A DNA stretch of 64,000 nucleotides from the NCBI GenBank assembly GCA_965285935.1, contig OZ260661.1, positions 49,972,001-50,036,000 on the forward strand, given 5' to 3'. This document shows, in pieces, positions 21,512-61,550 of the stretch. Below the pieces are notes generated by a model, which saw only the letters and a program-made list of their open reading frames with translations, was not told where the DNA came from and did not search any database. The stretch's first letter is position 1; every line of letters starts with the position of its first letter. The stretch is from Ophelia neglecta (taxonomy: Eukaryota). A program made the translations under genes and the position numbers.

Positions 21512-21751
21512 TGATTCACACTTCTAAAGGCGGTAAATGCGTCACACCAAATTATGTAAAAGTACTTAGTCAGCGCTATTGGGGTCTTATAGCTGGGCTT
21601 CAGTAACTGACAGTAAGTTTTTATGAAATGCTCGTGACTGATGATTCACTTGCTAGCTGAAAGTGAGGGCGTCAGGTTGGTTGCACTACTGTTAGCAGCT
21701 GTTAGTACACCCAGCTACCAACAGAAGCCATCCTGAAATAGGATGACGTCA
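21512..21751 (+). promoter_or_regulatory. MEN1 proximal promoter/5' UTR with clustered bZIP-type sites and a possible non-coding first exon
   Basis: TGATTCA 21512 and 21642, TGCGTCA 21538, TTATGTAA 21552, TTAGTCAGC 21566, TGACGTCA 21744. A donor gtaagt at 21613 has candidate acceptors at 21724 and 21741. Confidence 0.35.
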
Positions 21752-21769
21752 TATTCGTTCAATTTCAAG

Positions 21770-34418: not shown

Positions 34419-37400
34419 TTAATGTGGGTCATTGATATTTTCTCCTTGCTCACAGAAATCAGGTTGGAATGTGTTGTTTTCTTTATCTGCGCTTGGAGAG
34501 GCCACCTCCTCCATACTGGACACCCGGTGGACTATCTGAGCATGCTCTGTAAGAAGTTCAGCAAGCTCTTTTTTCCTTTCCTCAGCAGACTTCTAAAAAA
34601 CAAAGTATCATATTTAAAAAAAAACAGCAACAGTTAATTGATATACTACCAGATATTTTATATTTTTTCTTTGTCAATGGACTTGAACTGAAAGCGAAAT
34701 AAAAGTCCAAAGAAAAGGGCTTAATTAGTATAAGTGGATTGTGGTAATTATTAATTTGTGTTGTCTGAATCTCCAAATTGTTCCATTCCTGCCATCCTTG
34801 TACATTTTCATTTATAGTAAAGAACAGCACAAAATAGGATTCCCAACAAGTTTGATGAAACTAATAACAATAATCATAATAATGATAATTATTATATGAT
34901 AATAAGTAATGTCAGTTGAAGCATTGAAGCTAATAAGCATGTAGCTGAAATACTAGTAGTTTACTAGTCCAAATTTTCTATTTATTTATCAGACCTTGTA
35001 GGGCCACTACTAGACCAATAACAAAGTGTTTGTTAATGACATGAAGCGATATAGCAGATAAAATGAGGAGACTCGGAAAAGGAAAGCTAAAATTAATAAG
35101 CATTACAATATCCAACAATTTTGATCAGTTTTTGACTTATAGGCAACCCATGCATTGTTAAGTTGAGCCTAGAAGTCATTCATGCTCACAAAGCACACAA
35201 CAATCTCTGACAAAGTGTTGCTAACATATTTCATTCTATTACTGTAATAGTAAAGAAATAATGTCTATTTAAAGTGTGTCAGTGCCATTTGCCATGATAA
35301 AAAAAAGCCTGGATCAATGTGTTCTCCAGTGTCTTTCTAGTACAGTTGACTGGATAAGTAACAAGTACCAAGTTTAATGGCTAAATGAGCACCCCTGAAT
35401 TTACTAATATAGTCAACTTGTGGATTGACACCAACCAAGGGACTGAAAATACTGGTCTGATTATAGAGGCAGTCTGTTGAGAAAGGTTATTTTTACACAG
35501 AAAGTGTACAGTATCTCTTGACAGTATGGTATCCATATTTAGTGGTATGAATAGGCAGGTGGTCTGAATATAGAGGTGGTCTTTAAGGCAGGTTTCACTG
35601 AATTTGTCATGTGGAAAATAACCTCCTACCATGCAGTGGCTCCACATTTTGCAAACCATGTTGGTTTTTTTTTTGCTTTAAGGGCATTGGATGCCTATTT
35701 TATTGATTACCGGCAGTCAGTTCTTCTGAGGGGCCTGGGCTTGTGTGCCTTCCTTCCGCCCTAACTAAATGTATGGGTGTGATGTTTATATCCACCTCAA
35801 GCCCACATGAGCACAACTCACTGTCATATGCCTACCACTCCTCTGTAATCTCAGCAGTACTTTAATTCTAGTGTGCCAAAAACAATTTTTTTTCTTTTTG
35901 GCCTCTCTGTCCTACAGTTCTCTGATTGTTTTGACTTCTATGCTGATGGAGAGATTGCTTACATTGGTATCAATGTCAACATTAGTCTTTGTTTGTGCCA
36001 TCTAAAAGGTGTTCAGCTCATGTTTCACAGAACCAACCATACAGATTGATAGTCTTGTCCACATCCTCTTTCATAGCTGCTAAGTACTGCATGCATTTTT
36101 CTTCTATCAGGTTATTTGTTCTAACTGCAGCAACTGTCAATTCATTACAGATTAGGAAGTACCAGTTCATGTAAACACAACCTACAAATGGTCACAAATA
36201 ATTAAGCCTATCTTACCAATCTTACCTATTTAAAAAAAAAGATTTTATGACAGAGAGTTTCGAATTCCGTATCTGTCACCCCTGAGCATTTGATTCATAT
36301 GAATACCCCAGTAGACCTACTCAGTCTTCAAGTCTCTCACTATTTATTAATCATCTTCTCAAAAGGCTGAACAAAGGCTGACCACCCAATGGGATTATCA
36401 GCCTTTGTCTTCAGCCACTTTAACTGAATCATAACTGGCAAGGGTCTGGTCAGTGGTTTAACTTTTTTCGTTTCCCTTTCTGGCACTCCCTCTTGTACCT
36501 TTCCCTTTCTGGCAATCCCTCTTGTACCTACCATATACTAAACTGACCATTGGTAAAGAGATGAATCATTAGCAACTAGCATTTTGATGGCTCTATCAGT
36601 ATCAATACCGAGTGAAGAAACAAAAGGCCTAGGGAAAAATCTAAATTACACCTTAGTATATTTCATATTTGAGTGCAGAATACGACTTTATTCGGTTGTT
36701 TTATTCAGTAAAATAATTTTTGGATCTTTCTTCCAGGGCTACTCTGAGAATAAAGTACAGTTGCCAATAAAATCTATTACTAATTAATTAATCACAATTT
36801 ATGCAGAATAAGTATGGGAGGGCAAAGCTTTTCCTGACTATAACAATATTTCTCCCAAGGTCCAGGGGTCCTTCAGCCCCTGCCCGATACAGCAAAATAC
36901 ACAGGTTAACATCTTATCGTAGTGGTCAGATATGACTGATTAGGGGCAAATATGTATATGTTCACAATATCCAATGTCCATGTTAGAACGACCAGTAATG
37001 CCTAAAGGTGTTTGCTCATGGCAGCAAGGTAAAGGGTGGTAGGGGACTTTAAGTGGCAGTATATCCCTAGTATAAACTACGGTGATATCTGCAAACAACA
37101 GTCAGACAACAGAGTGAGACCATTATTGGGTGCTCTGTAAGCAATTTTGTCACCTTGGTTCCAATACCGCTTCGACTGGCCTTTGTTGGTTTTAAAGAGA
37201 ATGAAACCTGTGCTTTGTGAGGTGTGCAAAATAGTTTCGGCAGCAGTTTTGGGCTCGTGTAACAAATCTGGGTGCCAGCAGGGTGGTTTCATTCTAATTT
37301 TTTGCAGCTTCATGTACAGTGAAACCTGTGAATTAAGACCACCAAAGGGACTTGGAAATGCTGGTCTGATTTCAGAGGTGGTCTGTTTATACAGGTTATA

Positions 37401-40400
37401 TAACATTGAAAGTATACAGCATGGTCCTCACATTTGTGGTCTGAATTGACAGGTGGTCTGATTAAAGGGGTGGTCTTTAAGGCAGGTTTCACTGTATATT
37501 TAATTTATCGCTCTTCCCTAGGCCATAATAAAGTGAACTAGGTCTTTGAATCATCTTTCTTATTTTATTGCTTCTAGCTCTTTTTAAACAGTATAGAAAT
37601 CAGGTAAGATGAACCCCCAAAATCAATTTTCTCCACAGTTTTTTCACAGCTGTCAAATCATGTCATATAAGAAACAGTTCACTTAGTACTAACTTAGCAA
37701 ATTATGTTCTGTGTTTGAAGGAACCTTCATGAAGCACTTAATATAACTTGTCAATAAAAGCATAGTATATAGGTGCAATACTAAATACAGGTGGAATATA
37801 TGCTTTGCAGAAACTAAGAAGCAAGATGCTACATGCATGATCACTCCCTTAGCTCTCCAATCATGTGTTTAGCTAACCAGCTTTTGGCATTCTGAAGGAT
37901 TGTGTTAGATAATACTGACATATAATAGTCATATAAATGTATATTGTAATAAAGCATATCATGCCATTTATGAAGCATAAAAGAAATGTTCAAAAAGGCA
38001 ATATTTCACAATAAGCAAGACCTCAGAAGACAACAAAATAACAACCACAGAAAAGGTACTGGTCTCCAGTCTAGATAAACAGCAAACAGGTGCAAATGTG
38101 TTTAGTAACAAAATAATTTGGAGGAATACTCAATTGCTTAAAGAATACTAAACCATGTGACTATAAGACATACCAGTAAATTCGAAAACAAAATTGGCAG
38201 TACAAGTCTTTAATATCCTTAACAATGATTCAGTGGTTACAACCCTATCTTTTTGATTTTGATTTTTCTTCTTTTCAGAACATTCAGAGTATATTAAATG
38301 TCTACATGTCAAATGAAAGGATGATATCTGGCCAAGATAAATTCACTAGTTGTAAGATTTTTACATATCATGAGAAGCAGCAGCAACTGATTGAGTACTC
38401 ATCAAAATTATCTGATGCAAGCAAGCTTTTGGAAGTAACTTTAGGATGTTTTTGATATCTCATACGAGATGTATCAGTTCAATTTACTCACGGTTAAATT
38501 TTTTAATTGCTGTTCAGAATTTCTAGATTTCAGGACTCTCTCTGTGATAGACACGCGTCGGCCGGCTTGGGGTTCAAACTCTTCTGGAATCCCTACAGTT
38601 TCTTCAAAATAAGCATTTGTACGAGCAAGTTAGTTCTGCAGTTCCATATCGCAGCAGACAAAGCAATGTTTGTACAGCAACACGAAAAAAGGGCCATTTT
38701 ACATAGAAACCTAAATTTCACACCATGCAGTGAGATATGAACAGTGCTCCTTTTGTTTTAAGGGAGTAAATTGTGGGAGTGGGGGTCTACTACTAGAGAG
38801 TTCATTATTACTATCTGAAATAAAGGAACGAGATGGGGGATATAAAGGGGTCACAGTGGAAAAAAGAAAATCTGAACTACTCTGAACTCTGATAGAAGGA
38901 CAATTAGATATGTATTATAAATATCCCACAGTGCTCATAAATGCTGTGTATTTTTGGGGAAAAAACACATGAGATATTAAATTTGCTTGGACCTATAAAA
39001 CAATAATCTATCCTAGAAAAGAAAGAAGATAAAATATTTGTCAGACATTAACTTTTCAATTCTAGCCTTTGCAATGTAATTACCTACACCAGTATGACTA
39101 TTTAGGTCAAATCAACAGTGAAAAGAAACCTACCGGTAACTTCTTCTTCATTTGCACCTTCATCTGCTACATCAATTTCTACTGGTTTTTGCTCCCCAGC
39201 TTCATCTTCTAGTTCTATACAAATTTCTGAATTTGATCCTTGCTTCTTTAACATAACATTTGGTTCGAGTTCTTCCCCAACACTGGGATTTGTGTTAAGA
39301 ACATCAGCATTAGAAGCCTTTTCAGTCTCTTGTCCTTCACTATTCATTTTGTCTTCTTCAAGTTTTTCAGTAATTGATTCTGATAAATATTCCTGATTGT
39401 TGTTGCTCAGAGTTATCATTGATTCATTTTCTTGACGTATTTCTCTTTCTTGTTCCAATTTTGTGTTTTCTTCCTGTGAGGATTGAGTGTCCTTCCCAGA
39501 GGCCTCAGGGTCTGCTTTTTGTAGGACAGTATGGTCTACATGGGGTAAGGCAACATCCACTTTGTTCTGCCGCACTAAATTTAAGATATAGAAGATTCAA
39601 GGCATGTTGCAGATTATAGCTTTTAGTCAGAATATCACTGTGTTGTGAAGCATAAAACTATTGTATTAATACGTTAAAGACCACCTACCAGGAGTTTGGG
39701 ATAAGTCGGCCTGTGATCTGGAAGCTAGGGGGGTGCTTGTTGGGGCTAATGGAGTTTGCTGTGAAGTAGAGAACAGAAACAATTTTTTTTCTTTGCATCA
39801 TCAAAGATTTGACATTGTAGTCTGCTGCAAGCGTAACAGTAAAATAATACAAGACATTATTAATATACGGCTTCAATTTTAATTGCAGCCTCAGATAATA
39901 CATGTATTTAAATGATTCTTATGGTACTTCCAGATAGTTCAGCCAAAAGCTTTGGAAGGGGCAGTGTGTCAAGCAGGAAAATAGCATGATTGATTCAGTA
40001 TCTAATCGTAGGTTCAAGACTTCAATATGCCAGGCCATGTTTGTCAGCTTTAAATTTCTCAATTTTTTTCATTGACCATCATGCTGATTTCAATTGCAGT
40101 CAAAAAAGCTGTCATTTCTACTACATCATTCAAGGCACCATGTCTTTTCCGCCATGCATGCTGATTGGGTGTGCCTATATTGCATCTTTAGAGGTATAAG
40201 CACAGAGTTAATTGTTTTCTAACATGTCATGCTTCAGTGCTTAACAGATCCTCTTATGCGTACACCATAATTTTTGCAACTTTGAAAGGGATTGTTAATG
40301 GGGGGAGTGTACAGCACATATCACTGAACACTTTTGCCTATCCCTAATACTCAGCAGGGCCCAGTCTGCTCTTTTATCAGGAGGAAGGAGGGGGGGGGGG

Positions 40401-43400
40401 GCAGTTTTCAGGCATCTCCCAATACCTTTCCTCTTGTGTGCACAAATCAGAGGGGGATGTCCACCAGGGTGTAGGGATGGCTGTCAGGCAAAAGTAGGTT
40501 AGTTAGTTTGGTATCACAGGTGACTGACAGAAGGCATCTCTGTCACACCGCAAAATGAAATATTAAGAAATACTTTAAAACTTGACAACAACAAAATTTA
40601 ATGATAATTTTAGTGGATAAATTGGATATTTTTATTCCTTGACCCAATCTAGAAGATTACACTATTTTGTTACACCCTATTCCCATTGGTTATAAGCAAA
40701 CATTGCAACTTCCTGTCCATCTTCCTGCACAATGTGGAGGAAAAATATGGAGGTGTGAAAGTGAAGATCTGTTTAAAATTTTTAAGTCAGATACTATAAA
40801 ACAGGCCCCCAATATTTAGCTTTTCTATAATAATTTCTGCATGAGACAAACTGCCAATTAACAGCCCTAGGACAATAGCCCCAGGACTTGTTCAGTCTGC
40901 TCAGATCACCATTATAAGCTAAAGTATTGCAGATTTTCTGGGCCTAGCTTTTCACTTCAGCATGCATTTATATTCAAAACAGTGCCCTCCCCTCTTTCAT
41001 AAGACTATTGTTTGGAATTCATTATTAGGTAAAGAAAAAATATCCTGGATAAGACAGCCCCTGCAATGCTATGGAAATGGGTTTAACAGGCCATATTTTG
41101 TGAGCTTTTGTGTCTCCAGTAACTGACATTTTTGTTTGCTAAACATTGACATTTTTTATTACAGTGACCCTTAGCCTTACAGGAAGGGTAGATTACAATA
41201 TAAAGGATTTCAAACTATTTGGTAATGAGTGCAATGTTTACATATTTTATCTTCAAAGATAACTACCTGGCAGGTCCAAGAAAACATTTAAAAATATCTA
41301 GAGAGTTGAATTAATTCAGAGAAAATATACTTATTCCCTATGGCTGCTATGGCATTTGCTTGAATATCTTAAACTAACACATTTTCTTGCAAAAGTTTCT
41401 GTGCTGCATGGACACTATTTACTTTAATTTCTACAGATTCTGTATATTAGTCAAGTAAATGAGGCCCAATAATAGCAGAGATGACATGGTTACATTGATT
41501 AAGATGCCACATCACAATACTTGCCACTGAACAGGTATAGTTTTGAAGCAGATACATAACAATCAAATTTTTCTTTTTGCTTATAATAACAAACAGGAGT
41601 TTGTGCTTGCAGCAGAAGTGTATCATCCATTCTTAAAACATCCAGACCCTGGAGAACTAACATTCAGATAAATCAGCTGTATCTGATGTGCTTACCTACA
41701 TAACCTGTGGCACATTTCAATGTAACAGTATAATACAGATGCATCTTATCATTATTATATTTTGATGCTGTAAGTTAACTTACCAGTACTTCTCTCCTGC
41801 GGCCACCAGATTTCTCTCTAAACAGCTGATACTGCACACTCGCAGAGGAGTTTTGCTTTCCCCTAGTAACTGACTGGGATAAATGTCCAGCTCCTGGGGA
41901 AGCTATTATAGAACTGTCTGTAACAGAAAATAAATCCTAGTATCTTATTTATATACAAAGTTAAGAAATCACAGTGCTTTACGTTAACTTGTACACCTAG
42001 AGTGTGACCAATTCAAAGGCTACTAAAATATCAAGTATTGTTGAATATGAGAGACATTTGATGCAGCATTTACGTCATACCCTTACAGTATACAATCGTT
42101 TTGTAAAAACAACAGATCTGGAAACAGGTACTTGAGAGCCACTTGAGATAACACAGAACAAATGGTTGTGTTAAGCTGCGACAGGTACAAGTTGGTATCT
42201 TCATCACTGTGTAGGCAAAACCGATGACCAAGGGTCAACTTCTCACCTGACTCAAGTTCTCTGAGATTGGTGGTGTCTGAGTTTATATCATTGTCATGTA
42301 AGATGGTTAAGGCACATATCACTTCAAATAGCAAATACTTGAAAGCACATACAATGTCAATGACAAGTAAGACTTCATACTGCTAAGAAGATTATGGCAA
42401 TGGCAAATCATTACACTTAAATAATCAAACAATTCAGAATACTAGGATTACCTACCATCCAAGGTAGAGGTTGTTAGAGATTCTAAATATCCTGTATTGT
42501 GTGAACATTGTCATTTTATCCAATATTGGTGTTTTGATGTTAACTATTGAAATATTACACTTGTGCAAAAAAAAATTTAATTGCTTTTCACACAAGTGAA
42601 CCATTTATCAATAACATTTAAAATGCATGTGACACATGTTGATACCAAGATCACATGGGCCAGGGTAGGAAACCATGTATATGTTTATATACATAAATCT
42701 ATCAATATGACCTTCAGTGGAGATTGATTAGGGGTCTGAATTAAATATCCACTAAAATCAAGTCCAGAGATGGAAAATCCTGCTCAGGATTGTGTATACT
42801 GGGTTGGCTGCTACCATATGTGTTCATTGAGGAGTTCCAGCTTATTAATTAAACTATGGTTATTTAAATTAGAAAACCAACTATGGCATTCTGGTAAAAC
42901 ACTTGGTTTCCAAAATGATCCAAGGAAATATTGAAGTCTTTGTTAAATAGAGACTTTTTAGAGGCCCATGCTTTGATAGATGGCCATGATGCCAAACACT
43001 ACATTGTGTTATTGATTCATTGTGTAATCAGTTTCTACATAAATCAAAATGGCTGAGATAAAGTATGAATACAAGCTGAAATAGCAGCTTTAGGACGTAT
43101 CATCAAGTATCCAAACCAATTAGATTATCAAGGTAACAATGAAGAGAATACCTCCTAAAAGAAGGATTTGGCAATCAATACATGTCAAAAAGTGTTATGA
43201 TACATATAATGTTCAACAACATGCATATCAATATATCAACCAGTTAGTTGTTTATTCATAGATCATTTTCACAATTAGCAACAAGGAATACATATTGCAT
43301 TGCACATGTACATAGATATACAAATAAACCAATGGAAAAAAAACCATAACACACATAAATTGAAAGCTAAAGACAAACTACTGGTTCATATTTTTTACAA

Positions 43401-46400
43401 CTAGAGAACGGTAAATTATGGCTAAGCAGAACAAAAATGATGAAAGACTAAGTGGTAGAATCAATAAATTGAAGAGATCACTAAGGAAGAAGATACTCTA
43501 AAGCATGGTAAGTTGGTTACTGAACTACATTGACTGGTAGAGCTAAGTGATAAACAGAGTGCTGAAAGAAGTCGGGACAACATGGGCTGAAAAGAAAAGA
43601 AACACACTATAGAAATGTGACTTTAATATCAGAGTTAGCTTGGGCAATTAGAATCCTGAGCAAACTAGTATCATCACATGGGCAACTAACCACAAGATGA
43701 AAACTAACGATAATGAAATAAACAAATTGTACCAGAATTTTGCAAAGAAAAAATGTTTAGTGTAATATTGAAAGCTTTAATCATAATTGCAAGTGTTATT
43801 CACAAAGAGTTGGTAAGTACATGTAATTCCATGCCCACTGCCATGGCAGGTATTGATGTAGCCATCACCTGGGATATGGATAGAGTTTGATAAAACATAG
43901 GCTAGCATTCCTGGCAAGCATCAATGATGGAAAGCCGGCTATCCCATCAATATTTACACAAGTTTTTGACTTATTTTGTTGCCCGATCCTTTGTGTCAGT
44001 TAATTCCAGAAAACCTACGTCACACATGTCAAAGTTATAAAGGGCCCTCTCAGCTGTTATCAGGTCTGCCAATTTCATGCACATCAATTGCAGTGCATAA
44101 CATTTTAAGTGCAAACCACAAGCACAATGAAGTTTTCAGGTAATGACTATAGTTACAGTTTCTATATTTCCATAACAAACAGCTCAGTCTTCTAAGGTGT
44201 AGACCTAAAAGCATTTTGACAGACCTGACAGTGGATCCAATTATCTGAATACCAGTCTAGGTAGCATTCTTACAGCATAAATGGCATAAGCAACAATTCA
44301 AGAGCACATATTTTTCAAAATAAAACCTAACTCAGTTTAACTAAACTTACCAGAATATGGATTGATATCCCTTCCAAGTAACTGCCCGTCTGTCGGTTTA
44401 TGTGGCTGGTAGCTCTTGAAGAAATATGGAGCTGGTACGTAGGGCCGGTGACTGTAGCCAGTGGCTGACGTTCTTGGCCGTGGTGTCTGGGGAGTAGGGA
44501 AGGATGCAATAATCTCTGCCTGCTTGGGGTTGCGGTAACTTCTGTAAAATAAAAAAACCTAGAATACCAGTCCAAGAAAATGTTTTACAATTGCAATTAT
44601 GCAATGGAGAAGGACAAAACACTACAGTAGAAATTTAAGATGGAGAACTTTTGATTGAATATTAATAATGTGTTCTACCAATCTACAAGAGAATAATCAA
44701 CATGACAACCCTTGAGGAGAAATCAGATTCTATTAGCTGATTGACTTTTCCTGAACAACATGTTTCCAAAAATAGTTTAGATGAATTGCAGAACAAAGGG
44801 TACATTGAACCCAATGTTCAGCTATAAGTCTGTGTTACTGATAGTGAATGTTCTTTTAAATTACCAATAAATAAAACAAGATGTCCAAAGACATGGTGCA
44901 CAGCTCCACACAGGAGGAATCCAAGATATACAGTGGTGTACACATATTCTAGCAGATGCACATACAGGCCATCAGTACAGAATGATATCTGATCATCAAC
45001 ACCAAATGAGAAATGAGAGAATCATGAAGGTAGAGAGGTTTAGCAACAGAAAATGTCCCAATGAGAAACAATGGTAGATGTATCTTTGTTAAATTTACTG
45101 ATGAAGCAGAAATTATCAAATTTATTTTTAGATATATGTATTAGCCATTAAGCCAATTGATATATGATATAAGCAATCAATATAGGATTAGATATGAATA
45201 GCAAAATTACAATACCAAGTCTGACTGTGAAGAATTTTGTCATAGTAGGCTATTAGGCTTTTTATATAGAATGGATACCTAAGGAAGAATATATGCAATG
45301 ACCATAATATTCACTACACTGGACACTTTCCCAGGTAATACCAAAATTGTGTTTCATGTTGAATATGTATTCGGCCATAAATATAACTAGACATCAAGAT
45401 AGGGCAGGCCTAGTGTCATAGCATGAAAAATACTTACTGGTAAGTCTACATTTGCATTTACATATCTATAAAAGTAAAGTGTTGGTAAAAAATAAAATTG
45501 CCGTGCAAGTCTCATCCTTCCATCTATCTACATACAGTGTTCTTCCTCTGTACCAAGTTTCGATAAAATCCATCCAACAGTGTAAAAGTAAAGAGATTAC
45601 TAGTTATAGCACTGATTGACTGCATGATAGATTGAAAAATGAGTGGGTGTATAAAAAGGAAACTGGTTCATGGCACAGAGCCATAAACATAGTATAGTGA
45701 TCACAAAATGCACATCTATGTCCCCTGGAGATCACTCGAGTGCAGTGAAATATGGTTGCAATCCATACACAAGTTTCGTAGATCTGCTCCAGAAAGGATG
45801 TTTGGATTAAAAATGCAAATTGGTTGTTAATTCTACACCAATAGGGGGGTCAAAGTGCAGCTACTCCAAATGGCACATCTAGTACAGCAGTGGAATACTC
45901 AAGTGTAATAAATAGAGCAATCTGTCCAGTGGTTTAGGAATGATGGATGGTCAGAGGGATGGTCAGACGACGCTATTCCATATCCTCTTACATACATACC
46001 GTAGCATGGGCAAAAACCTGATTAATGAAATAATACAGTGCAGCATTTAAAAAAGAAATTTAAAGTGCCTGCGGATAAGCCTTTTATAACAGTTGGCAGA
46101 TGGCAGGAACAAGTTCAGAAGACCATCAATCTGTTGAGCTCAGCTAGCTTCAGTAAGCTGAGCTAAAACACACAAAGCTACTACATCTGTGGGTACCTGC
46201 AGCTGAGATGTAACCATTTATCAACAGACTCTAAAGCAGTTTTGGAACAATTTGGGTTTTTGCAAGAAATGTACTTGTTCAAAATTCTCACCTGAGGTAC
46301 TATATACATGTAATGTTTTACGTTCTAGCAAACATTTTCATAAATAAAACCCATTTGACTGATCAAAACAAACTGCACATTTCCAGACCTTCCCTCTGTA

Positions 46401-49400: not shown

Positions 49401-52400
49401 TAAAACACTAAGTTACATATTTCAAAATGTGTTGTAAACAAGCTTTTATCCGAAAAAGCTTGTGTATATTATGTACAGGAACATCTCAAATTTCCAATGT
49501 GTGGCATATTGGTTCAAAAGATATGGCTAGTATAACTAGGTCCCTCAGGTTTTTTTTCTAATATAGAATTACAAATGTGCCCATAAACCTATATCTAAAA
49601 GTACATCATATATTGTTACCTGAATAGAGGATATTTTAGTCATTTTAACTGCATGCTGAAAGCAGTCTTGAGGTTCTACCATATTGATATTGAATGAATC
49701 AATTCTCCCACAATTAATTAATTACGATTTTAAGTGGACGAATTAATTGGACGCAATCAGGACTGGGCTAATTATTTGATGTGAATCTGAGCCACTGCAG
49801 CTGTGCAAAAAAGTAGCACTTGAATGGACCCTGAAACGAGGGGAGATATATACGGCCGAAAAATACGAATGTTAGCGGAAAAAAAAGATAAAGATATTCC
49901 AACCTTCCTGTAATAAACCACTTGAGAGCTCATGAGCATGAAAAGAATTAAATGTGTTGTTTTCTTAGCATTTCTCGGCATCATATTGCTGTTGTTGTAG
50001 TGAACGAGATGCAGCCAAGTTCTGCTCGCTAGATACAATAGTGGCCTGCCACCTGGTGCACACTTTGGCATCTGCACTGTAAGTATTTGTAGTGTGACAT
50101 TAATAAAATACAAGGTGTGAAACATTACTTCTGGACCATGGGATGGGGTGGCCGGTATAAATTTATTTTGCCACCGCTAACATGGCTACCGGTACATTAA
50201 TTTATACTGTGAAGCAAGGCGGGACACCGTGAGGTAGCCTATAGCTGTATTAGGTATTTCAATAAATGGCGGCCAGCCTTTTCGTATTCTGACATTCTTG
50301 AGTATATTGACCATTTGACAACACTTTTGGAACTGAAGTGTACAGTTCATATTTACAATACATTCAAGCCTATCTGTTACAGCAAGGAAGTTTTATATTA
50401 GGTTATTATGGATATTACTGAGGCAAATTTTTTTTTTACAGGAAATGAGGCCAAATAAACCCCTTTCCCCCTGAAAGTGCAGGAATCATCTGAAGTGCAA
50501 AGAAATACAAAAAAGTAACCTTAATTCTAAAACTAAAAATTGTTTCTGAGTAAACCTTGAAAAAAGGTCAAGACCAAATTTGACAAAACACATGGATTTG
50601 CAGTGAATGGACATTGGTGTGCTACAGGGTGGCACAACATGGGAAAGATATGACCTGGGAATTCAGTGAAAATTGTCCTGTCATCGGAGGGAGTCCCTTC
50701 ATTGGAGGGTCCCTACATCGCAGGGACCACTGTATATCCAATATGCCAAACATCCCGCCCAGCATCCACCCCTCCCCATCCCACCAACTAACCCCCAATA
50801 ATTTTTTCCTGAACGAGTTTATAAATTCTATCATCCAGTGAAATGAAATGGACATGAAATGGAGATGGTACCCCCTGCCACCTTCCTCCCTGCCCCTACT
50901 CCCCCCCCCCCCCCTTTTCCAACCTTTTCAGCCTCCATGTATTAAACTTATACATGTATAATTAACAATGACAGCAAAGCTATTTGTAATACTTACATCA
51001 AAATAATTAATCCAAATCACTCCCAAGGTCTCAGTACACATACACTGTCATCAGTATATAGACATACTACCCTAGATTGCCAAAATTCCTGGTTATCCAT
51101 TAGTGGCCCTTGCCTGAATACTTAGACAATCCCAGTGCAGATATGAATGTTCTTATCAGTGATTACTAGACCTTACTTACATACTTAAATTATTTTAACT
51201 ACCTGTTAGGTCATTCAAAATGAACTAAGATCATTTTTAGATAAATGGAGTGGCCTATAGGACTGATGGAAGTTACATGTAAATAATATGTGAGAGCATC
51301 AGTATGAATAATGTGGAGAACACAAACAGATGCCGCCACATGTAGCTTAATAATGCATGGATTATATAAACAATTTGTCAATTTATTTACCAAAACAAAG
51401 TTTCGCAAAGAAGTTCAAAACACACAAATTTGCCTGAAATGGTGAGAAAAGCAAACAAAAACAAAAAACAAAGTTTAAAAATTTTCCTGAAAAAACATTC
51501 CCCATGCAAAAATTGTTATTCCTCTAAATAAAAGAAACTACCTGAAATGGCAAGAAAAACAGAAGCAAAATTTCCCAAAAAAGTATGACTAATAAAGGCT
51601 GAATTCTTCATTTATGTAATTTGACCAAGCTTAAAAATGACTAACCCAAGTCAAATCAGGGAAGTAAATTTGTTTTGATAAGTGTGGTTTACTATATTCT
51701 TAATGTGCTTCTAGGTTCTTGCCAATAATACAAATGCTGAAATAATTAATGTATCAAGTAAAATTCGTGGTGAAGCTAATATAATGTCATATCATACCAC
51801 ATTACGATCCACTGTATGTGTGATGATACAACCTTGCAACAATGTATGACAAGTAGCTACTTGAATAACTGACTGTTTTGTCAATGCATATTTGAATTTC
51901 CTATGGCAACAGGTACACTCAGACACTAATTCAGATCCACTAACAGAGACAATATGTTTGAACATATTTTGTCATTTTAATTTGGCAGAAAGCATGTCTG
52001 AGTAAATTCTCCAAGGGGATTTTCACCGGTGCAAGACCTAGAATGCTGCACTCTGGGTTCCAAAATCTGGGTTTCAAAATCTGCTGGGTACTCAGGTTAC
52101 CATGCAGCTTGCAAATATCCTATTCTTGGTAGGCAATAAGATTATCACACTTGCCTATACAGTGATCTGTTTCTTCGAGTTGGCATGTACCTGCAATATG
52201 CCACTGCAGGAATAGTGCCTTAGGCTAGGCTGTGATCTGAGTGAAATCTGTTTCCAGTGACACCAAGCCACTAACAAGAACTGTCTTTCATAAAAGACAA
52301 GGAATTGTACTTACTTAGATAGGAGATTTCTTGGACACCACTCTTTTATACAACATACATGTACAGGAGTCAAACTGGGCATGTCCCTTTACAAGATTAG

Positions 52401-55400
52401 TTTATCACTTGGTTGCCTTGATAAATGTTCACACTGACAAAGTTTATGTAAAAGAGACATTCCCATACTCAATGAATGTCAACTAGCAAAGTAATAATAG
52501 CATAAGTTCAGAAGAAATATTCTTTGAATCACACAGCTCCTTCTTTGGACTTGGATTCAGTACTGGCCTTATAGCTGACCAGGGCCAATACAATAGACCA
52601 CATTTTCCAAACAATAATTTCTTGCTTGGTTTTGTTGACTAAGTAACAGCTTGTAAGCTTAATATAATGAATATCTGTTGAAATTTAATGCATGTTCACT
52701 GATTACAATAAGGTATTACAGAAACCAATACAGTTTTGGCTATAATTATATAATTTGTATATCACTTACTTTACAGTAAATCCTGTGCTCTGTCTTCCTT
52801 TACTTCCAGAATGTGCAATTCTTTTCTGGGGAAGAAGGTTGAGCAATGCATCCACATTTCCCTGCAAATTAAGGTATGCACCAATCATGCAATAAGATTG
52901 TATTACTGGTAATTCCCAACTGAAATCATTAATTTTTTACAAGCATGTGTACTGAAAAAAGTGCAGTGCATAAATATGTATCCAAAATTGTGGCTGCCAA
53001 ATACAGGAACCATTATTGTACAGCCATAAAATACCAATTAATTACACAGCAAAGAATTAGCATTCATTATTTCTTCTAGGCCATTAATAATTCTCAGTCG
53101 TCTGCTGGTTCAAAACGTCAATTCTGACTAGTTAACAAAGAGGCAAATCTTCTTCAAACATTTCCCCATGTAATCCCAGCAGTTGATATACAGGTGATTT
53201 ATCTTATGTTGAAATCAATACCTGTCCAAGTCTCCACAATGATATTATAAAGACTGAGGAACCAGCAAATTCCAATCAATATAATCCTAAAACATTACAG
53301 GTACTAAGGTTATTTCCTACCAAGGAAGCATGTAGAAATTGGGTTTTCTGGCCATTTTTCTATGTTAGGTATGGCTCAGATATCAACAAAAGGGCATTTA
53401 CTGGTACCTTCATCTATGAACATAATACTTTGGTAAGCAGGCTTTAAAGGAAATTTCAAAACAAAATCATCGAAGTACATTGTCAAAACTTTGAGCATGA
53501 CAAAAAATTAGACTTTTTAAGTAACTAAACCCCTTTTATTCACATTAATGACACAAACGCTGTTGAAATATTCTTCATCAGGGAATATATAGCATGGAGT
53601 ATATGGGACAAATTTCCGGAAATATCATTGCCTTCTGGTGTAAATGATATTACATGGCTGTATGTCCAAAGGTAAATGACATTATTGAAGCTTATGTTGG
53701 ACTACTAGACTGCGTGTAGTTATACTTGGCCATCCTAGTAAACCTCAAGGTAAACTAGTCCCATAACAGATGAGGGGTATAGGCCAAATCTCAAAAAAGA
53801 TGCCTCAGTCTAGTAAGGGAAATAGTTAGCTTCAAACCTGACATACATCAAGACTGCCAGTGGATTGTACAAATAACTCTTCCACTTTATATTCATTTCT
53901 AAATGCCCCTGTAATAATAAAGCACTGTATGGTAGGGACAGTGTGTCATTTTGGTTCTCATGCATAACAAGTTAGGCATTTGTTGACCAAGTTATGTTAC
54001 CCAATATTTTCACTTGATTTGTTTGTGCAATAAAATTTGCCCTAAGCAAGCTTGTCTAGTAGAAAGTAGTTGGAGAAAGCTGAATACATACCCTGCAAAC
54101 CTTCTTATAGCAATCTACAATGCCGATTAATTCCTTCTGAGTGATTGAGGCCTGGTGTAATTCCTCGGCCAGTACATCATCCAGAAGAGACAAACTTCCT
54201 TGGTCCAATTCTCTTTCATCTGGAGCCAGGTATTCAAAATGAGTCACACCAGCATTGGTAGATGCTGTGAAGTGGCGGGCATTTTGTCTGAAGTAAAATA
54301 CAGAATGTTACTTTGCCACTTAGTTTCTACTGCAAACAGAAAATGTCCTTTTGACCATTACTTTGACCATGAATGATATCAAGTTTACTACTTAAAGCAT
54401 CTTGAAATGACAGACAGCTAGTCTAGTTATTGCAAGCTTGGCACTTTGCGTTATTGATTTCCACAAATTTAATGTTGCTTGTGCCAAATTATGATGTAAT
54501 TACTTAGTAAGTTCCCAGAAGTCAGGCTCCTGGTAGTCTGGATAATTCATCCTGGGGGAAATGACGGTTGATTTTGGAGTGTTCGGTTTCTGAAAATTAA
54601 AATTTACAATTGTGAGCTACTGATTACAGTTTTTTCTATTTTTAAGTACCTGTTAAGTAGCATGGTAATGTAATAGAATTACATTTAATGTTTATATGAA
54701 TTATTAAGCACATTCATGTCAGGTAACATATACTATGGTAAAGAGTTATTATGAAAACAATCATAGAACCTCTGCTATGATAATCTATCATAGAACACAG
54801 GAACATGATATAAAATGTACTTTACCTTGAGAGGGTTTCCAACAAAGCCTTTCTTGTCCTCCTTGATGCGGAGCAACTCCACTTTTCTCTGCCGAGGGAC
54901 CAATGGGTAGCGAGACATTGGCATCGCCGGCATATTTGGAATGTTAGGGTTGAGGAGTGGGTGGTGATGAAGAGGAAAAGAATGCATCGTATTAGCTGTA
55001 TTTTGAAAGCTGTTCTGCACTTGTCCCGAATAGGGCTTTTCTGGCTAAGCATGTAACAGAAATGAAAGCTGCAGTGAAATAATATCAATTTTACTACTTT
55101 TGCAATTGTTTTTCTTATCACTGAGGCACAGTGGAAACATTGTTCAAACTCAAATAATTTACTATTAGGTAATTAACCACAGTGACTTCAGATAATTAGT
55201 TTCAAGTTCATTAACAAACACATGTATTTATGCTTGCCACACTTATTCTTAAAGCTTAACTAAATGATAACAGCCTCACTCTTTGGCACGGATTCACCCA
55301 AAATGTGAATACACAATCTATTAAAAGTGATACTTTATTGTTTTGAAACACCGGTTATATCAAAGTGAAAAAACAAACATTAAGTTATGCCCCAATTGCA

Positions 55401-58288
55401 TTCCCAGGGTCAGGGTGAAACTGCAGTGCTACCTGGTAAGTGAAATTTAAAATGTGACCTAGTTAAATCTACTAGAGAATGTACCGGTACACAGATCTCC
55501 TGAAATAAGGAGACTTCCTCAACTCATTAGATAATATTCTCCCTTTTCCTTGAAAATGGCTCACTTTTATTATTAACATTTTTTAAAATTCAACTTATGA
55601 ACTTGGCATGTGTCACCTTATTTACTTCGATTTTACCTTTGTGCACACACAATGTCACAACAATTCACTGATTAAAAAAATGTGAAAAATTCTTCAAGAT
55701 ATTGCAAATGTGAAAAATGTACCCCTTGGGCAATGTTAGGTGAGAGAATACAGTTCTAACATGAGGCTGTTGGTGTAGAGGGGCCATGTATTTTCCTTTT
55801 TAATATTCCTAAACTTCCAGCATCAGGAATAACATACAAGTCATTATTTTCAGTAAATTTCACTGCAAGCCATTTTTCACGCTATATTTGTTCTTGACAC
55901 TTTATGGTTAAAAGAAACTAAGATCAAAAAGAAATATTGGAAAATTTCTGACACAACCTTTACACGAGCAAATTTTCATTGAATATACCACTCAAATAAT
56001 TAAAATATTTTACTAGGCATGGATTTGCCAAGGTTCATTATTAATAGTAAATATTGTCAATAGTATAAATTTACTCTATATGTAAAAATAGGTATTGCTA
56101 CTGCTTATGTGAATGCAGAACATCTACACAGTCATCCATTGAGACATTTATGTGATGATTGACATGCAAGACCTTTTCAAAAAATTAAAACTAAATCATT
56201 ACTCTCTGCCATATGTTCAACATTGATTTATTTACAAAGTGATTTCTAAATCTCGCAACAACACTTCATGCATTGCACCGTCACCCGACATGGCTTAATT
56301 TTGTTAGAATCTGGTCTCCAAAGTAAACTCATACCTCCACAGGCAGATGGCCAAATAACTAATCGATCCAATATGAACACTAAGAATGATGGAATAAAGA
56401 AATTAAGTCATTTTGAGGTTTGTTTATAAGTGGTGAACATTCAAGAGATCCACAGAGAATTAAATCGATGGTCATTTTAACCCCTTTTCTTCTGAGATTT
56501 TTGTATCTACTATAAATCACTGCGATGAAACTATAGGAAATGAAACCATGAGAAATGGGGCCCAAGTAACTTTTTCTTTCAATATAATGAACAAGGAATT
56601 ATTTGGACACTGCCATCTGCACACAAATACCACAACATTCATTCATCAATTTATTTTTTAGTTTGCTGTTAAGATTGTGACCAAAACATCATACAGTATT
56701 TTCTTAAATCTTACAGATACTTCTTTTGAGGTAGTAGGGGAAGGCTCTGTGTTACATTCATTAATTCTTTGCTGAAATAAAAAGGCAGTAAAACTTGATC
56801 TACAGTTGTTTGTCTTATCCCATGTGCACAGCACATTCTCCTCAGACTGACATATTGACTTTATTGATACATGTCCAAAACATGTATGTCTATGGATTGA
56901 ACACTTCTGTTCAGGTAAAGAGGAAACTACTACATTGGTTCCAAACTACTTCAATGACCATATATTTATTTACGACAGGGTTATAAAGGTCCAGGTTACA
57001 GTGAATGAACAACAGCACACAGAGCATATATCCTCTGCTACTCAAGGTGTCATTTGTTGGAAGGCTCACTTTGGAGAGGTCGAACAAGGAAAACTCATTG
57101 CAAGAGTCCATTGAAGATTACAATGAAGTAATGTTGAACAAAGAACGCCAAACACTGAACGCCGGACGGACAACAACCTGACTACTAGCACATATAATGC
57201 CTCCATTGGAGGCCTAATAGGATGTCAAAAGTTAAAATCTGTAAATACTGGAACTGGTTTTTTGCATTAACCGTATCTAACCATATTGTCATATAGTAGA
57301 GTGATGACAGGTGAGGATAAAAACTTACATATCTACGTTGTTCAGTGGGCGTCCTGACCCTACAAGACGGCATGCCCCTACCTCTTGCCAGGGGAGGTAC
57401 GGCATGCTTTACTCCCTGTGGGGCATGACGGCTTTCCTGTCAAAGCAAAAAAATTTCATCGCATTGCATCATCCATAGCTACTTAATGTTTACAAAAATT
57501 ATGAAGGAAAAATGAGCAAACAAAGATTAAAAGATATCTACAAATTTTAAAGAATTCTAGTCAAATTTATTCTCATGGCTTGCTTGATCCTTGATCACCC
57601 CAAAGCGAAGCTCATTGTTCATAAGAAGGAGGAGCATTGTATCTATCGAGGCAAATTGGCTTTAATAACAATGAGACATACAGGTTGTAAGAATGCATTG
57701 ACAAGTTCTTTAATATGTACTTGTACAACTTGACACACATATAACATCTTAACATATTTGAAAAATTGTGGGTAAAATGGGTTTTGAAGTGCATATAAAT
57801 GTAAAAAATTCTCAACCCACACCCAACCACCTTGATCTAAAAGAAGATGCATCTTGTCGCATATTTGGGTTGTACCCTTAGTTTAAGGGTTGGCCTTTTT
57901 TCAGATTTTTATAATTAAGCCTTATTTTGGAATAACAAATTAAGGAACTTTGTTTTACTAATACAAATCCCTTAATTTGGCACAAAGGTTCGCTTTTTTC
58001 TAGATCTAAGAAAAGGCGGTCTTCTATTAGAGCAAATACGGTATACAAGATTTCTGCAGTGACTTAATTTTTCTTAATTGTAACAGCTGTATTATAATAT
58101 CCACCTGCACCTCAATCACAAATATCAAGTTAGAAATGTTAACATACTGAACCAAGAAATATGCCAGTGAGATTTCTAGTAGGTCCTCGCGGTGGCCGTG
58201 TTGGCATGGCATTGGTAAGAGGAACATGCACCAGGGGGAGCTCTGCAGTGGGCTGAATGTTCCTCATATTTTTGTCTGCTGACAACAT
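34419..58288 (-). CDS. Uncharacterised protein of about 624 aa (Pro-rich N-terminus, short helical core, acidic low-complexity region, C-terminal helix), 11 predicted coding exons
   Basis: Exons 58148-58288 (ATG), 57329-57436, 54826-55044, 54504-54589, 54101-54287 (in-phase alternative donor at 54092), 52770-52861, 44351-44541, 41784-41917, 39134-39566, 38492-38601, 34419-34592 (TAA). All have GT-AG boundaries and the phases chain into one stop-free 1875-nt frame. No family recognised; small extra exons may have been missed. Confidence 0.75.
35410..35600. mobile_element. MITE of the 37317 subfamily (left end degraded)
   Basis: Ends with GGTGGTCTTTAAGGCAGGTTTCACTG, as does 37317-37494. Confidence 0.7.
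35690..36170 (-). mobile_element. Decayed LINE ORF1 remnant
   Basis: A coiled-coil-like stretch, then IREL*DREAKKK..IVFG and a later KPRPLR, matching the E.E.RK.NII.FG and RPRP motifs of CR1/L2-type ORF1. Confidence 0.45.
37317..37494. mobile_element. Complete TA-target MITE
   Basis: Perfect 12-bp TIRs CAGTGAAACCTG / CAGGTTTCACTG flanked by TA on both sides; internal GGTGGTCT repeats. Confidence 0.85.
44874..45990. mobile_element. Fragmented Helitron/HINE-like remnants
   Basis: AAACAAGA-type start, ACCAAGTTTC..AAAATCC motif and GGATGGTCAGA repeats typical of non-autonomous rolling-circle elements. Boundaries are uncertain. Confidence 0.3.
46671..46839. mobile_element. MITE copy, inverted relative to 37317-37494
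   Basis: AAACCTGCCTTAAAGACCACC...GGTCTTAATTCCCAGGTTTCACTG-TA, a close reverse complement of the 37317 copy. Confidence 0.85.
47826..48155 (+). mobile_element. tRNA-derived SINE with Meta/MESC-like core and (AACC)n tail
   Basis: A-box-like TGGCAGGGTGG head; core GGTGTCAGTATAATTGTGAC..GGGTTCCCTGTCTGGTGTC; ends GTTGAAAGCCATGTAAAACCCCAAAC(AACC)n. Three copies in the window. Confidence 0.8.
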
Positions 58289-61273
58289 GTGGGCCTTTCT
58301 ATGTCACCAATGTGACAGACAACTAAAATCTGTCGAGATCTGCAAGAGTAAAATATGGGGTAGAAGTCAGGTCTTACATATTTACAAAATTACAATACAC
58401 TGTAACATATTCAGGAAAACATTATAATTTTGCCATACAAGGACAAAGAACAGATATCCAGTAAATTTTTACTCTTTTAACATCACCTGTGCAAACCAAG
58501 ACAGGAGGTGGAATAAAATATGTAGTGATTGCTGCTTTTACAGAAAGAGCAATAATACACAAATCATGCTGGAACCTAACTGTTTAAGTTGCTATAATTT
58601 ATATTAGTTAACTCCTAAAAGTTAATCATATGAAAATCTGGCTCTAAATATCTTGCAGCCTGCTTCAGCCTGCTTTCCCCTTGTGTAAATGTATTCCTTT
58701 TTATTAATTATTTTTTTCCTTCAACATTGTCAATGATCTGTTAAAAAACCTTCGTAAACCAACAGGTACATTAAAAAATGGTGGGCTAATAATCCCAATT
58801 TCCATTGAAATGCAAACTTTAGAGTAAACATCAACCAATAACCTGACTTGTTCACTTGCTCAAGCTGTTCGTTGTTATGCCAACATCGTTCCCACTTTCT
58901 CTCGCTCGCTGGAATTGGTGGTCAATTTCCATGAGAAAACACCCCGCTTTGTCATGCTGCTAGCAAGCTTCGAGAAACACATCCATAATTCTAGTTCTGG
59001 TCCCTGTTTTGAACCAGGGGTAGCTGAGAGAGTGCCCGTTTTGTAAAACTAGCTTAAACCTTTTGATAACTTTGTGTAAAAGCTAGACTTGGTCCAGACA
59101 AGATCAAAACAATTAAATTATAATACTATTTAAAACAATAATTCTATACATTACTAGTCGAATTATTGCACAAGGAAAACACATCACGTCTTCTTCACTT
59201 ATACATGCACTTATTAAAATATAGTAAATTGTGTTTTCCAATGGATATTTGTAAATAAAGTCTTTAACATAAATTTAAACTTGTGATGATTTCCTACATT
59301 AAGTCTTAACCTACTTAAAGGAAAAAAAATCCTAAATATATCTATGAGGAAGGCATGCTCCCACACCCTTTCAGAGGGGGCTCTGTCACCATCACAACTT
59401 GCCAAATCTAGATCCCTGTTGGCCTTCCAGGAACAAGGATGGTCTGTTAAATGCGATTCCAAAAATATGTAAATGTCTACCTGGTCACAATGTGTTGCCA
59501 TAAGTAATCAAGGAATTGTCTATACGCATGACGAGGTGTTTGTATGAAACTGAATAATTGGAGCAGTCGAGCTTACATCACCACCACTGATTTGTGACTA
59601 CTTCACTAGGTGAAAACACCACAGGCTCAGCACTAGTTTCATGCTAAATTCAGCATTTTCAACGCTCCATTGTCAATTAACTATCTGATATAAATAGGGA
59701 ATATTATGGGATTCTGATTCTTTATGATAAAACGAACATGACAGATGAAAACCTATATGATTTTGGTCGAGTTTAAAGCTTACAGAGCAATTCTTATTTG
59801 ACTCTTAACATAGAAAAGATAGCAGCTTGACGGCAACTTCACCGAGCGCTGGACAACGTAGTGACGGCCACACGTATTTGTGATTGGCTGAGCACCATGC
59901 CCGACAGCAAGAATTATGATGTTATAAACAAGCCAATATGTCACCTAGATAGAATCCCTGACTGCAATATGCACGCCCCAATCCAATAATAAAACACCAA
60001 GATTTAGTTGCTCATTCTCTGTATATGTTTATTCTCCACTCGCAGCCATTTAAGTACAGATAATTGACAACTGAAATGGGCAAATTGTCGTAACTTCTCT
60101 TTCCATACACAGCTCTGTACACTTAAGCTTGCACTTGATGGTGTCATTTGACACTTGTAACTTTGGTGTATGTGTCCCATCATTCACTGAGTACTTTGAC
60201 AAGCATAAAAGCCAAAAAGGCTTACTGAAAACCCCTTTTGATGTTGAAGGAAACTAGTCAAATTTATTTTGCGGTAACTTTCGAAACATTTTTGCTCTCA
60301 GGCATATACATGTATCGGGTAATTTTGGGAAAGCCCTGAATGACACCCCTCCGCCACCCCCCCCCCCCCGCCCTCCGTATCCTCCGCCCAAGCCTCCCCC
60401 CCTTCCGTTTAAGAAAGCCCCCACTCCACTCACTCACTATACCTGACGAGTGCCCTGGTCCAATGTTTATATTGTTACACTGTTTATATGTAGGGATCTG
60501 CGTGATGTACTTATAAACATAGCGTAAGATGAATGAACAGCATTAGGATCATCATTGGGAAATCATTGTTTGGTTGATTTGAGATAACGAAAACTAAACC
60601 ACACCTACGTTACGTTCACATGAATATTCCTTGACGTAAAACATACAAAATCTTTTCCCGGTCACGTTGGAAGCTCAATGATTTACGGAACCACTTTACT
60701 ATGACGTCGGTTAGCAACTGTATATTTAGTCGGTGAGCAAGGTAGTTTGATTGTATTCACCAGGAGGCAGCACATGCCTTGATGTCTATTTTTGAGGCAG
60801 TAGTACGCACTGGCCATTGGGGGGGGGGGGGGGCGGGGGTACGTGCAGCCGTTGTCCCTTTGCAGGTTAAATCAGCAGGTGAAGGAACCCGCATAACTGT
60901 TTAACACGGGCATTATTTGTACCGATTAAACGTTTGTCATACCTATAGGATGAATTCTACTCCCATATCATACCAAAAAGGGGAAAGTGTAATGAAATGT
61001 TCCTTACACGATATATAAACAAATAAAATTTTCACTACAACTGAATTTCTTTAGTGATACAATTATGACCGCATCACCTAGGAATATTTATTCAGTTACA
61101 TGACTGGACAAATGAAACACTGTAATCACAGCACTGTAAAACCACAAATTGTTCGCAACGATTTAACTGCATGGCAAATTCCGGAACTGAAAACAAAATA
61201 CAAACATTAATAGTTGCCAGCATTGTCATTTTACAATACATATAATATAGTTTATTTGATTCTAATCCCAAAC

Positions 61274-61550
61274 TGTGGCAAAGTGGTTACAGTTTCATTT
61301 ACGTCAAACCCAGGACGTAAAAATAGGTGCTGATGGCTGCCTGGCATTTCAGGGGAATATTCAGGACCAATCAAGCCAGTGTCAGTATGTGATTGTGTGG
61401 GGTTCCCTGTCTGGTGGCTACCGCAGGTATGCCAGTGAGACAGCAATATATAGAGTAAGAGCTGACTGTCACAAGTAGGCACCATGGTGAAATGACCAGA
61501 TAGTGTTGAAAGCGATGTAAACGTACACTCGAACAACCAAACAGCCATCA
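61274..61550 (+). mobile_element. Third, more diverged copy of the Meta/MESC-like SINE
   Basis: Shares GTGTCAGTATGTGA, GGGGTTCCCTGTCTGGTG, ACTGTCACAAGTAGGCAC and GTGTTGAAAGC with the other two copies. Confidence 0.75.

What the first reader, a model, noticed from the sequence alone, without database searches (positions are those of the whole stretch)
34419..58339. Hidden 11-exon orphan gene (~624 aa) that the ORF track mostly misses
Seen: eleven minus-strand exons with GT-AG sites chain in phase, without stops, from MLSADKNMRNIQ... to ...GENINDPH*. The protein has a Pro/Arg-rich N-terminus, one compact block that may be folded (DYQEPDFWELTK...THFEYLAPDERELDQGSLSLLDDVLAEELHQASITQKELIGIVDCYKKGNVDALLNLLPQ), a Glu-rich spacer of about 145 aa, an RRVS PKA-type site and a terminal helix (SAEERKKELAELLTEHAQIV). 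Inference: I recognise no family. The composition plus nearby X-box-like motifs would fit a lineage-restricted ciliary or sperm protein.
Basis: partly seen in the sequence, partly recalled or inferred. Interest (0 to 1): 0.7.

Follow-up and report, generated by a model that had tools for sequence, protein, structure and literature searches.

The report
Unnamed disordered protein shared with starfish
This stretch holds a single-copy, 11- or 12-exon animal gene whose protein has unnamed relatives in sea stars, sea cucumbers and a freshwater mussel, so it is not an orphan; it is predicted to be a mostly unfolded scaffold that likely works on microtubules, but the starfish counterpart is not expressed like a beating-cilium gene and is not limited to sperm.

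Summary
The gene is real; the orphan label is wrong. The minus-strand exons chain without stops into 653 aa (12 coding exons) or 627 aa (11; exon 9 unresolved). The product aligns end to end with uncharacterized proteins of three sea stars, two sea cucumbers and a bivalve (E 1e-44 to 1e-14). A profile built from homologs alone hits 9 of 2933 window ORFs, all predicted exons. Homologous loci keep intron phases, and exon 5 shows dN/dS about 0.06 between two of them. No Pfam, PDB or fold match. About ten short motifs are conserved in a basic, proline-rich front part, then an acidic arm and a terminal helix; AlphaFold finds no folded domain. The RRVS site is not conserved. The ciliary reading is only weakly supported: one non-canonical X-box-like site lies 583 bases upstream, but the sea-star ortholog is transcribed in ovary with almost no enrichment in motile-ciliated cells (log2FC 0.10 against 2.4-3.1 for foxj1, tektin-1, RSPH9). 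Best guess: an old, unnamed disordered scaffold of microtubule or centrosome type. No RNA of this species was available.

The parts
58871..58884 (.). X-box-like 14-mer GTTGTTATGCCAAC, one mismatch from GTTGYYATGGCAAC, 583 bases upstream of the first ATG; function untested
   Evidence: only site with at most 1 mismatch in the window; this variant 145 times in the genome against 2 for the reversed control; all sites with at most 1 mismatch 14307 against 309; patterns recalled or chosen after seeing the site
58148..58339 (-). coding exon 1 (acceptor 58339, ATGs at 58288 and 58267; aa 1-47); an untranslated exon upstream is inferred
   Evidence: (iE 5e-5)
57329..57436 (-). exon 2 (aa 48-83), conserved VPPL..RG and RTPT motifs
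   Evidence: iE 2e-5
54826..55044 (-). exon 3 (aa 84-156), conserved VELLR..E...GF motif; the front part is alternatively spliced in sea stars
   Evidence: iE 9e-5
54504..54589 (-). exon 4 (aa 157-185), poorly conserved
   Evidence: needed for frame; L008 has an exon at this place ending in the same phase; no profile hit
54092..54287 (-). exon 5 (aa 185-250), most conserved: R.FTA..N.GV.H.E.L strand-like motif and two helices ending in G..DCYKK.C; donor corrected from 54101 to 54092
   Evidence: iE 5e-12
52770..52861 (-). exon 6 (aa 251-281), L..LLP motif
   Evidence: 11 of 30 residues identical to the bivalve; weak profile hit iE 1.9
44351..44541 (-). exon 7 (aa 281-345), SYRNP and VPAPYFF motifs
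   Evidence: iE 7e-10
41784..41917 (-). exon 8 (aa 345-389), IIA.PG.G motif; end of the basic part
   Evidence: iE 0.016
39689..39758 (-). exon 9 (70 bases), uncertain: may be skipped if the next acceptor is 39566
   Evidence: 54% G+C against 29% in flanks, strong donor; no homolog support; the crude acceptor score favours 39566 over 39574
39134..39574 (-). exon 10 (aa 413-560), acidic arm holding one conserved I.LE.E.E.GE...V.ID hairpin motif
   Evidence: two short strands, pLDDT under 50; iE 0.002
38492..38601 (-). exon 11 (aa 560-596), holds the non-conserved RRVS site
   Evidence: needed for frame; 3-4 of 37 residues identical to homologs
34419..34592 (-). exon 12 (aa 597-653, stop TAA), conserved terminal helix with L.EH..I
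   Evidence: pLDDT over 90 in the bivalve model; iE 9e-5
34032..34037 (-). AATAAA, candidate poly(A) signal about 380 bases after the stop
   Evidence: read from the sequence; untested

Best explanation
A single-copy spliced gene encodes a 627-653 aa member of an unnamed protein family shared by molluscs and echinoderms, predicted to be mostly disordered, which likely acts as a scaffold on microtubule-based structures (centrosome, basal body or cilium base) rather than as a part of the beating axoneme. Shown: exon chain, homologs, conserved intron phases, purifying selection, two-part charge (front about 350 aa pI 9.9-10.4 and 8-12% proline; rear 200-290 aa pI 4.1-4.7, in 7 of 7 proteins). Predicted: disorder with two middle helices and one firm terminal helix. 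Inferred: the short conserved basic motifs would fold on binding along an acidic polymer surface, the acidic arm would project away from it, and the terminal heptad helix would dock a partner, as in projection-arm microtubule-associated proteins (general knowledge, recalled). The gene itself I put at 0.97; the confidence given is for the mechanism.
For: Gene. Single copy: exon 5 has 1 match in the genome and the bivalve protein's 2 of 2 matches lie in this gene. Architecture: charge; 496 of 606 residues under pLDDT 50; helix 546-592 firm. Microtubule or cilium link, all weak: X-box-like site; slight bias of the sea-star ortholog to the two ciliated cell groups, epithelium cluster 1 (16.6% against 7.7%) and follicle cluster 5 (12.4% against 8.1%); centriolin-like behaves alike in cluster 1 (log2FC 0.16); Atlas first hit for the bivalve protein is a ciliary microtubule inner protein at 0.76, a lead only.
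Against: No direct evidence of microtubule binding or of localisation. The ortholog's expression resembles that of menin in clusters 1 and 5, so it may be a broadly expressed gene. The site fits the published X-box consensus on neither strand, and an X-box alone did not predict RFX control in flies (PMC2375033). Atlas scores of 0.76-0.78 are below what shuffled proteins reach a third of the time. A basic, proline-rich disordered part fits nucleic-acid or membrane binding as well. The AlphaFold alignments are shallow (17-22 rows), so a fold could be missed.
Confidence: 0.4

Rival explanations
1. One reading: a structural protein of motile cilia or sperm tails (microtubule inner or outer-surface protein) whose short motifs pack on the doublet.
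For: Short motifs in a disordered chain are how SAXO/MAP6-type proteins bind (10.1101/2022.09.29.510157); X-box-like site; Atlas lead; some densities in sperm doublet maps are still unassigned (PMC11779644); testis was not examined.
Against: Sea-star ortholog log2FC 0.10 in the motile-ciliated cluster against 3.10, 2.40 and 2.48 for foxj1, tektin-1 and RSPH9, and it is not listed for cluster 2 where all three are. Family profiles find no PDB chain at E under 0.01, although the library holds doublet-microtubule entries such as 8snb, 7rro, 7ung and 8otz (control; 8snb as the sea-urchin sperm doublet is recalled). The motifs are not repeats.
Confidence: 0.17
2. A nuclear or RNA-granule disordered protein: the basic front binds nucleic acid or chromatin, the acidic arm acts as a chaperone or activation region.
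For: Same charge layout; many SP/TP sites (5-10 a protein); broad low expression including germ-cell nests (26.7% of cells against 12.5%); Atlas rows for the sea-star protein include an SRRM1-like cluster and Dendrin at 0.75-0.78.
Against: No nucleic-acid-binding Pfam domain; Atlas scores are at chance level; the conserved residues are largely hydrophobic and aromatic (F, Y, L, C), which suits protein surfaces.
Confidence: 0.22
3. A cortical or membrane-proximal adaptor (actin, junction or organelle surface) that gathers partners through its linear motifs.
For: Proline-rich motifs and a terminal coiled-coil-like helix; the weak PDB matches of the terminal helix are BAP31/BAP29 coiled coils (E 0.012-0.98).
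Against: Those matches are generic coiled-coil likeness; Foldseek rows to actin have E over 2 on a low-confidence model; no WH2 or other Pfam motif.
Confidence: 0.17
4. A pseudogene or a chance chain of open frames in this genome.
For: No transcript of this species was seen; exons 4, 9 and 11 have no profile support.
Against: No stop or frameshift across the chain; 9 of 9 profile hits on exons; synonymous sites saturated while 64% of non-synonymous sites are kept against L008 (pS 0.81, pN 0.36); single copy.
Confidence: 0.03

Closest known systems
Uncharacterized proteins LOC117289532 (Asterias rubens), XP_071796390.1 (A. amurensis), LOC110988504 (Acanthaster), LOC119720636 (Patiria), HOLleu_08837, BSL78_01535 (sea cucumbers), CHS0354_015753 (Potamilus)
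   Same: End-to-end homology (E 1e-44 to 1e-14), same motif order, same charge layout, isoform breakpoints at the window's junctions 2/3, 3/4, 5/6 and near 7/8.
   Different: Only 24-33% identity; linkers and the acidic arm differ in length; the RRVS site is private to the window's gene. None has a described function.
SAXO/MAP6-type microtubule inner proteins; CIMIP4 (TEX33, PF15400)
   Same: Mostly disordered chains that carry short binding motifs (passages; CIMIP4 only as an Atlas lead at 0.76).
   Different: No Mn-type repeats seen, no Pfam or PDB match; ortholog not co-expressed with axonemal genes.
Tau/MAP2/MAP4-type projection-arm microtubule-associated proteins (recalled)
   Same: A basic proline-rich half next to an acidic half.
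   Different: Order reversed (basic part first), no tubulin-binding repeat by Pfam, terminal helix instead; resemblance of layout only.
Lophotrochin and trochin (PMC7441323)
   Same: Invertebrate genes known by conserved motifs of no described family; a precedent for such genes marking ciliary bands (passages).
   Different: Those motifs are limited to spiralians and lophotrochin carries DUF4476; this family includes echinoderms and has no DUF4476.

Membership tests
Unnamed mollusc-echinoderm family (LOC119720636 / CHS0354_015753 group) | Full-length, collinear sequence homology | tested here: met
   (261 bits against a homolog-only profile)
Unnamed mollusc-echinoderm family (LOC119720636 / CHS0354_015753 group) | Shared intron positions and phases | tested here: met
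   L008 and L009 share both ends of exon 5; L008 also the donors of exons 3 and 4; isoform breakpoints match
Unnamed mollusc-echinoderm family (LOC119720636 / CHS0354_015753 group) | One-to-one orthology | tested here: inconclusive
   single copy here; copy number in the other genomes and synteny not examined; 7-row tree joins the window with the bivalve on long branches
Orphan / lineage-restricted gene | No homolog outside the lineage | tested here: not met
   homologs in sea stars, sea cucumbers and a bivalve
Known doublet-microtubule proteins (SAXO/MAP6, CIMIP4, tektins) | Sequence or profile match to a family or to a chain resolved in axoneme maps | tested here: not met
   library control
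FoxJ1-type motile-cilium gene set | Strong enrichment in motile-ciliated cells with foxj1, tektin, RSPH9 | tested here: not met
   tested on the sea-star ortholog in one ovary atlas only: log2FC 0.10 against 2.4-3.1
RFX target genes | X-box fitting the consensus RYYNYY N1-3 RRNRAC, conserved between species | tested here: inconclusive
   one mismatch on either strand; conservation could not be tested without a related genome
Sperm-specific proteins | Expression limited to testis or sperm | tested here: not met
   ortholog detected in ovary somatic and germ cells; testis level not seen
A-kinase anchoring proteins | RII-binding helix and conserved PKA site | tested here: not met
   no such Pfam family listed at E up to 1; RRVS not conserved
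Microtubule-associated scaffold (works-like claim) | Binds microtubules or localises to centrosome or basal body | not testable with these tools
   needs localisation and co-sedimentation

The most novel reading that the evidence does not exclude
An undescribed family, at least as old as the split of molluscs and echinoderms, of RFX-controlled disordered scaffolds with about ten new linear motifs (for example FTA..N.GV.H.E.L, G..DCYKK.C, VPAPYFF, L.EH..I) that builds a part of the basal body or cilium of marine invertebrates and was lost or changed beyond recognition in vertebrates, insects and nematodes, which is why model-organism cilia catalogues miss it.
Probability: 0.2. Interest if true: 0.6.

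Novelty: new member of a known kind. Interest (0 to 1): 0.3.

Why it matters
The gene model is sound and adds a member to a family that databases list only as uncharacterized and that has no Pfam entry; the motif map given here is enough to define that family. It is not a new gene birth. If the family proves centrosomal or ciliary and absent from vertebrates and ecdysozoans, it would be a component that standard cilia catalogues cannot contain, and the sea star Patiria offers a direct test. Absence from those groups was not shown: my searches were too weak for it.

Tried and rejected
No RNA holder listed for the stretch; the three runs are DNA contigs of one sample. Their other haplotype shows no indel in an exon among those listed (12 of 66 rows shown, 12 of 16) and two exonic substitutions among the rows shown (41830 changes a residue; 34551 is a third codon position by hand count): too few to use. 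Word-based search with exon 5 alone found 0 of 39 candidates, which shows how easily the family is missed. Dropped hits: P0003 and P0010 (repetitive, 2 of 10) and P0012 (46-aa cluster member that does not align). Pfam: nothing at cut-off. PDB by sequence: best E 0.012, BAP31 coiled coil. Foldseek: nothing at E 0.001; VIA-align was not run, the models being mostly low-confidence. Atlas: no answer for the window exon or P0007; leads under 0.8 for two homologs. Complex prediction of two copies of the bivalve terminal helix: no answer. A bivalve-type 11-residue extra exon between exons 5 and 6 was sought in the window and not found. A shorter acceptor inside exon 3 was tested at a misplaced coordinate and stays untested. 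The PKA/AKAP idea was rejected on conservation. A tektin control locus has no X-box within 1.5 kb of its matched exon, so the motif test is not calibrated. Papers: 0 hits in main texts for six gene ids and for five accessions and one motif; supplements of PMC10396339 and PMC8370769 hold neither the id nor four peptides, but files may be cut or coded otherwise. Earlier notes of this scan: four look-ups, nothing.
Full report
1. Observation. The window is animal DNA of about 36% G+C from a 762-Mb assembly. All quoted peptides lie on the minus strand. Reading the sequence I rebuilt a GT-AG chain of 12 coding exons from 58288 to 34419 without a stop. Each of the 12 exons is richer in G+C than its flanks, and the high-copy repeats seen in read depth fall in introns.

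2. Homologs. Pfam found nothing on single exons, and a word search with exon 5 found 0 of 39 candidates. A full phmmer scan gave 10 hits; 8 are unnamed fragments that look like the same exon read through into its introns (42-50% identity), 2 were repetitive and dropped. Their profile found a 616-aa uncharacterized sea-star protein, which aligns with the joined window product from residue 8 to 640 (E 6e-49, 27%). Its core found Acanthaster, Patiria, Holothuria, Apostichopus and the bivalve Potamilus, all named uncharacterized or hypothetical. The window product matches 11 of 11 isoforms tested (best E 1e-44 to 1e-14). A 7-row tree joins it with the bivalve, on long branches, so a mollusc or other spiralian source is likely but not shown. 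The gene is therefore no orphan: homologs span protostomes and deuterostomes.

3. Gene structure, tested independently. A profile of 11 homolog isoforms, without window sequence, hits 9 of 2933 six-frame ORFs of the window at E up to 5; all 9 overlap predicted exons (1, 2, 3, 5, 6, 7, 8, 10, 12) in order, 8 of them under 0.02. Exons 4, 9 and 11 are not hit; 4 and 11 are needed for frame. Two homologous genomic loci share the phase-2 acceptor and phase-0 donor of exon 5, and L008 also the donors of exons 3 and 4. Isoform breakpoints in sea stars and the bivalve fall on window junctions 2/3, 3/4, 5/6 and near 7/8. The product is 653 or 627 aa, seven less if the second ATG is used, as homologs suggest. 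Over 63 codons of exon 5, L008 and L009 differ by dS 0.33 and dN 0.021; against the window pS is 0.8 (saturated) and pN 0.36-0.38. The gene is single-copy. No transcript of this species could be examined.

4. Anatomy. Conservation is confined to about ten short motifs in exons 1, 2, 3, 5, 6, 7, 8, 10 and 12. In 7 of 7 proteins the front 340-400 residues are basic and proline-rich and the rear 200-290 acidic. AlphaFold on the bivalve protein (22 rows) gives mean pLDDT 42, a firm helix only at the end (546-592) and two weak helices in the exon-5 region; the window's exon 5 alone gives the same two helices at about 70. There is no sign of a globular domain, with the caveat of shallow alignments. 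No Pfam, PDB or Foldseek match.

5. The ciliary or sperm idea. For: one X-box-like site at 58871-58884, the only one in the window within one mismatch of GTTGYYATGGCAAC (pattern recalled). That motif is strongly enriched in this genome (1356 strand matches against 4 control; 14307 against 309 with one mismatch), about one site per 53-105 kb, so a site in a given kilobase is a 1-2% event by my arithmetic, and more in promoters. Against: it fits the published consensus on neither strand, and X-boxes alone did not predict RFX control in flies (PMC2375033, passages). The direct test came from a Patiria ovary atlas (PMC13407887; passages; supplement rows; marker file cut in cluster 14). The ortholog LOC119720636 is listed for 2 clusters: motile-ciliated epithelium cluster 1 (log2FC 0.10, 16.6% against 7.7%) and follicle cluster 5 (0.50); in germ-cell nests it is in 26.7% against 12.5% of cells at log2FC -0.59. 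In cluster 1 foxj1, tektin-1 and RSPH9 stand at 3.10, 2.40 and 2.48, and menin at 0.39; IFT88 is not listed there. So the ortholog is transcribed, is not sperm-only, and does not behave as a motile-axoneme gene in this one tissue, while a general ciliary or centrosomal role is not excluded. The family is also absent from chains resolved in doublet-microtubule structures that the library holds (control), though some densities remain unassigned (PMC11779644, passages).

6. Mechanism. I commit, at 0.4, to a disordered scaffold on microtubule-based structures: basic motifs folding on an acidic lattice, an acidic arm projecting from it, a terminal heptad helix docking a partner. Every step of this is inferred from layout; none was tested. 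Rivals are a nuclear or RNA-granule protein (0.22), an axonemal or sperm-tail protein (0.17), a cortical adaptor (0.17) and a dead gene (0.03).

7. Comparison and novelty. It is a member of an existing but unnamed and unstudied family. It is not a member of SAXO/MAP6, CIMIP4, AKAP or lophotrochin groups by the tests listed (10.1101/2022.09.29.510157 and PMC7441323 seen as passages). No main text in the library names six gene ids, five accessions or the core motif; supplements and subscription papers are outside those searches. Absence from vertebrates, insects or nematodes is not shown. Verdict: real gene, corrected model, not an orphan, function open; interest 0.3.

Noticed in passing
window 2687-8171 (+), 21737-27943 (+), 62781-63229 (-): Neighbours: CLPTM1 (PF05602), Menin (PF05053) tail to tail with the gene, and the last exons of a p24/EMP24-family gene upstream (PF01105). 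Useful synteny markers for finding orthologs.
   Followed up: partly
window about 9000-17800 (-): Exon-like frames that resemble a mitochondrial seryl-tRNA synthetase (recalled; Pfam gave no hit on the two frames tried), head to head with Menin.
   Followed up: no
G000:C1:306406/306957, 8154946/8155497, 19496908/19497459, 30989114/30989664: Perfect X-box words occur in pairs about 551 bases apart at several places, which suggests a small repeat element with X-box-like ends; it may inflate the genome-wide X-box count and could spread RFX sites.
   Followed up: no
window 58787-59014: The stretch around the X-box-like site has one 69%-identical match at G000:C1:69812014-69812243: an old repeat or a copied promoter piece.
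   Followed up: no
window 35428-35784, 37213-37569, 46312-46975, 47640-48303, 50296-50959, 59592-60255: Very high-copy interspersed repeats in introns and upstream (summed depth 1e4-4e5 against about 30); related copies at 15334-15657 and 61252-61551.
   Followed up: no
window 54826-55044: The front of exon 3 corresponds to a 47-68 aa piece that sea stars and sea cucumbers splice in or out and that the bivalve models lack; the window's gene may have the same short form.
   Followed up: partly
window 41830: A second haplotype changes a residue in exon 8 (Tyr to Ser), in a non-conserved stretch.
   Followed up: partly
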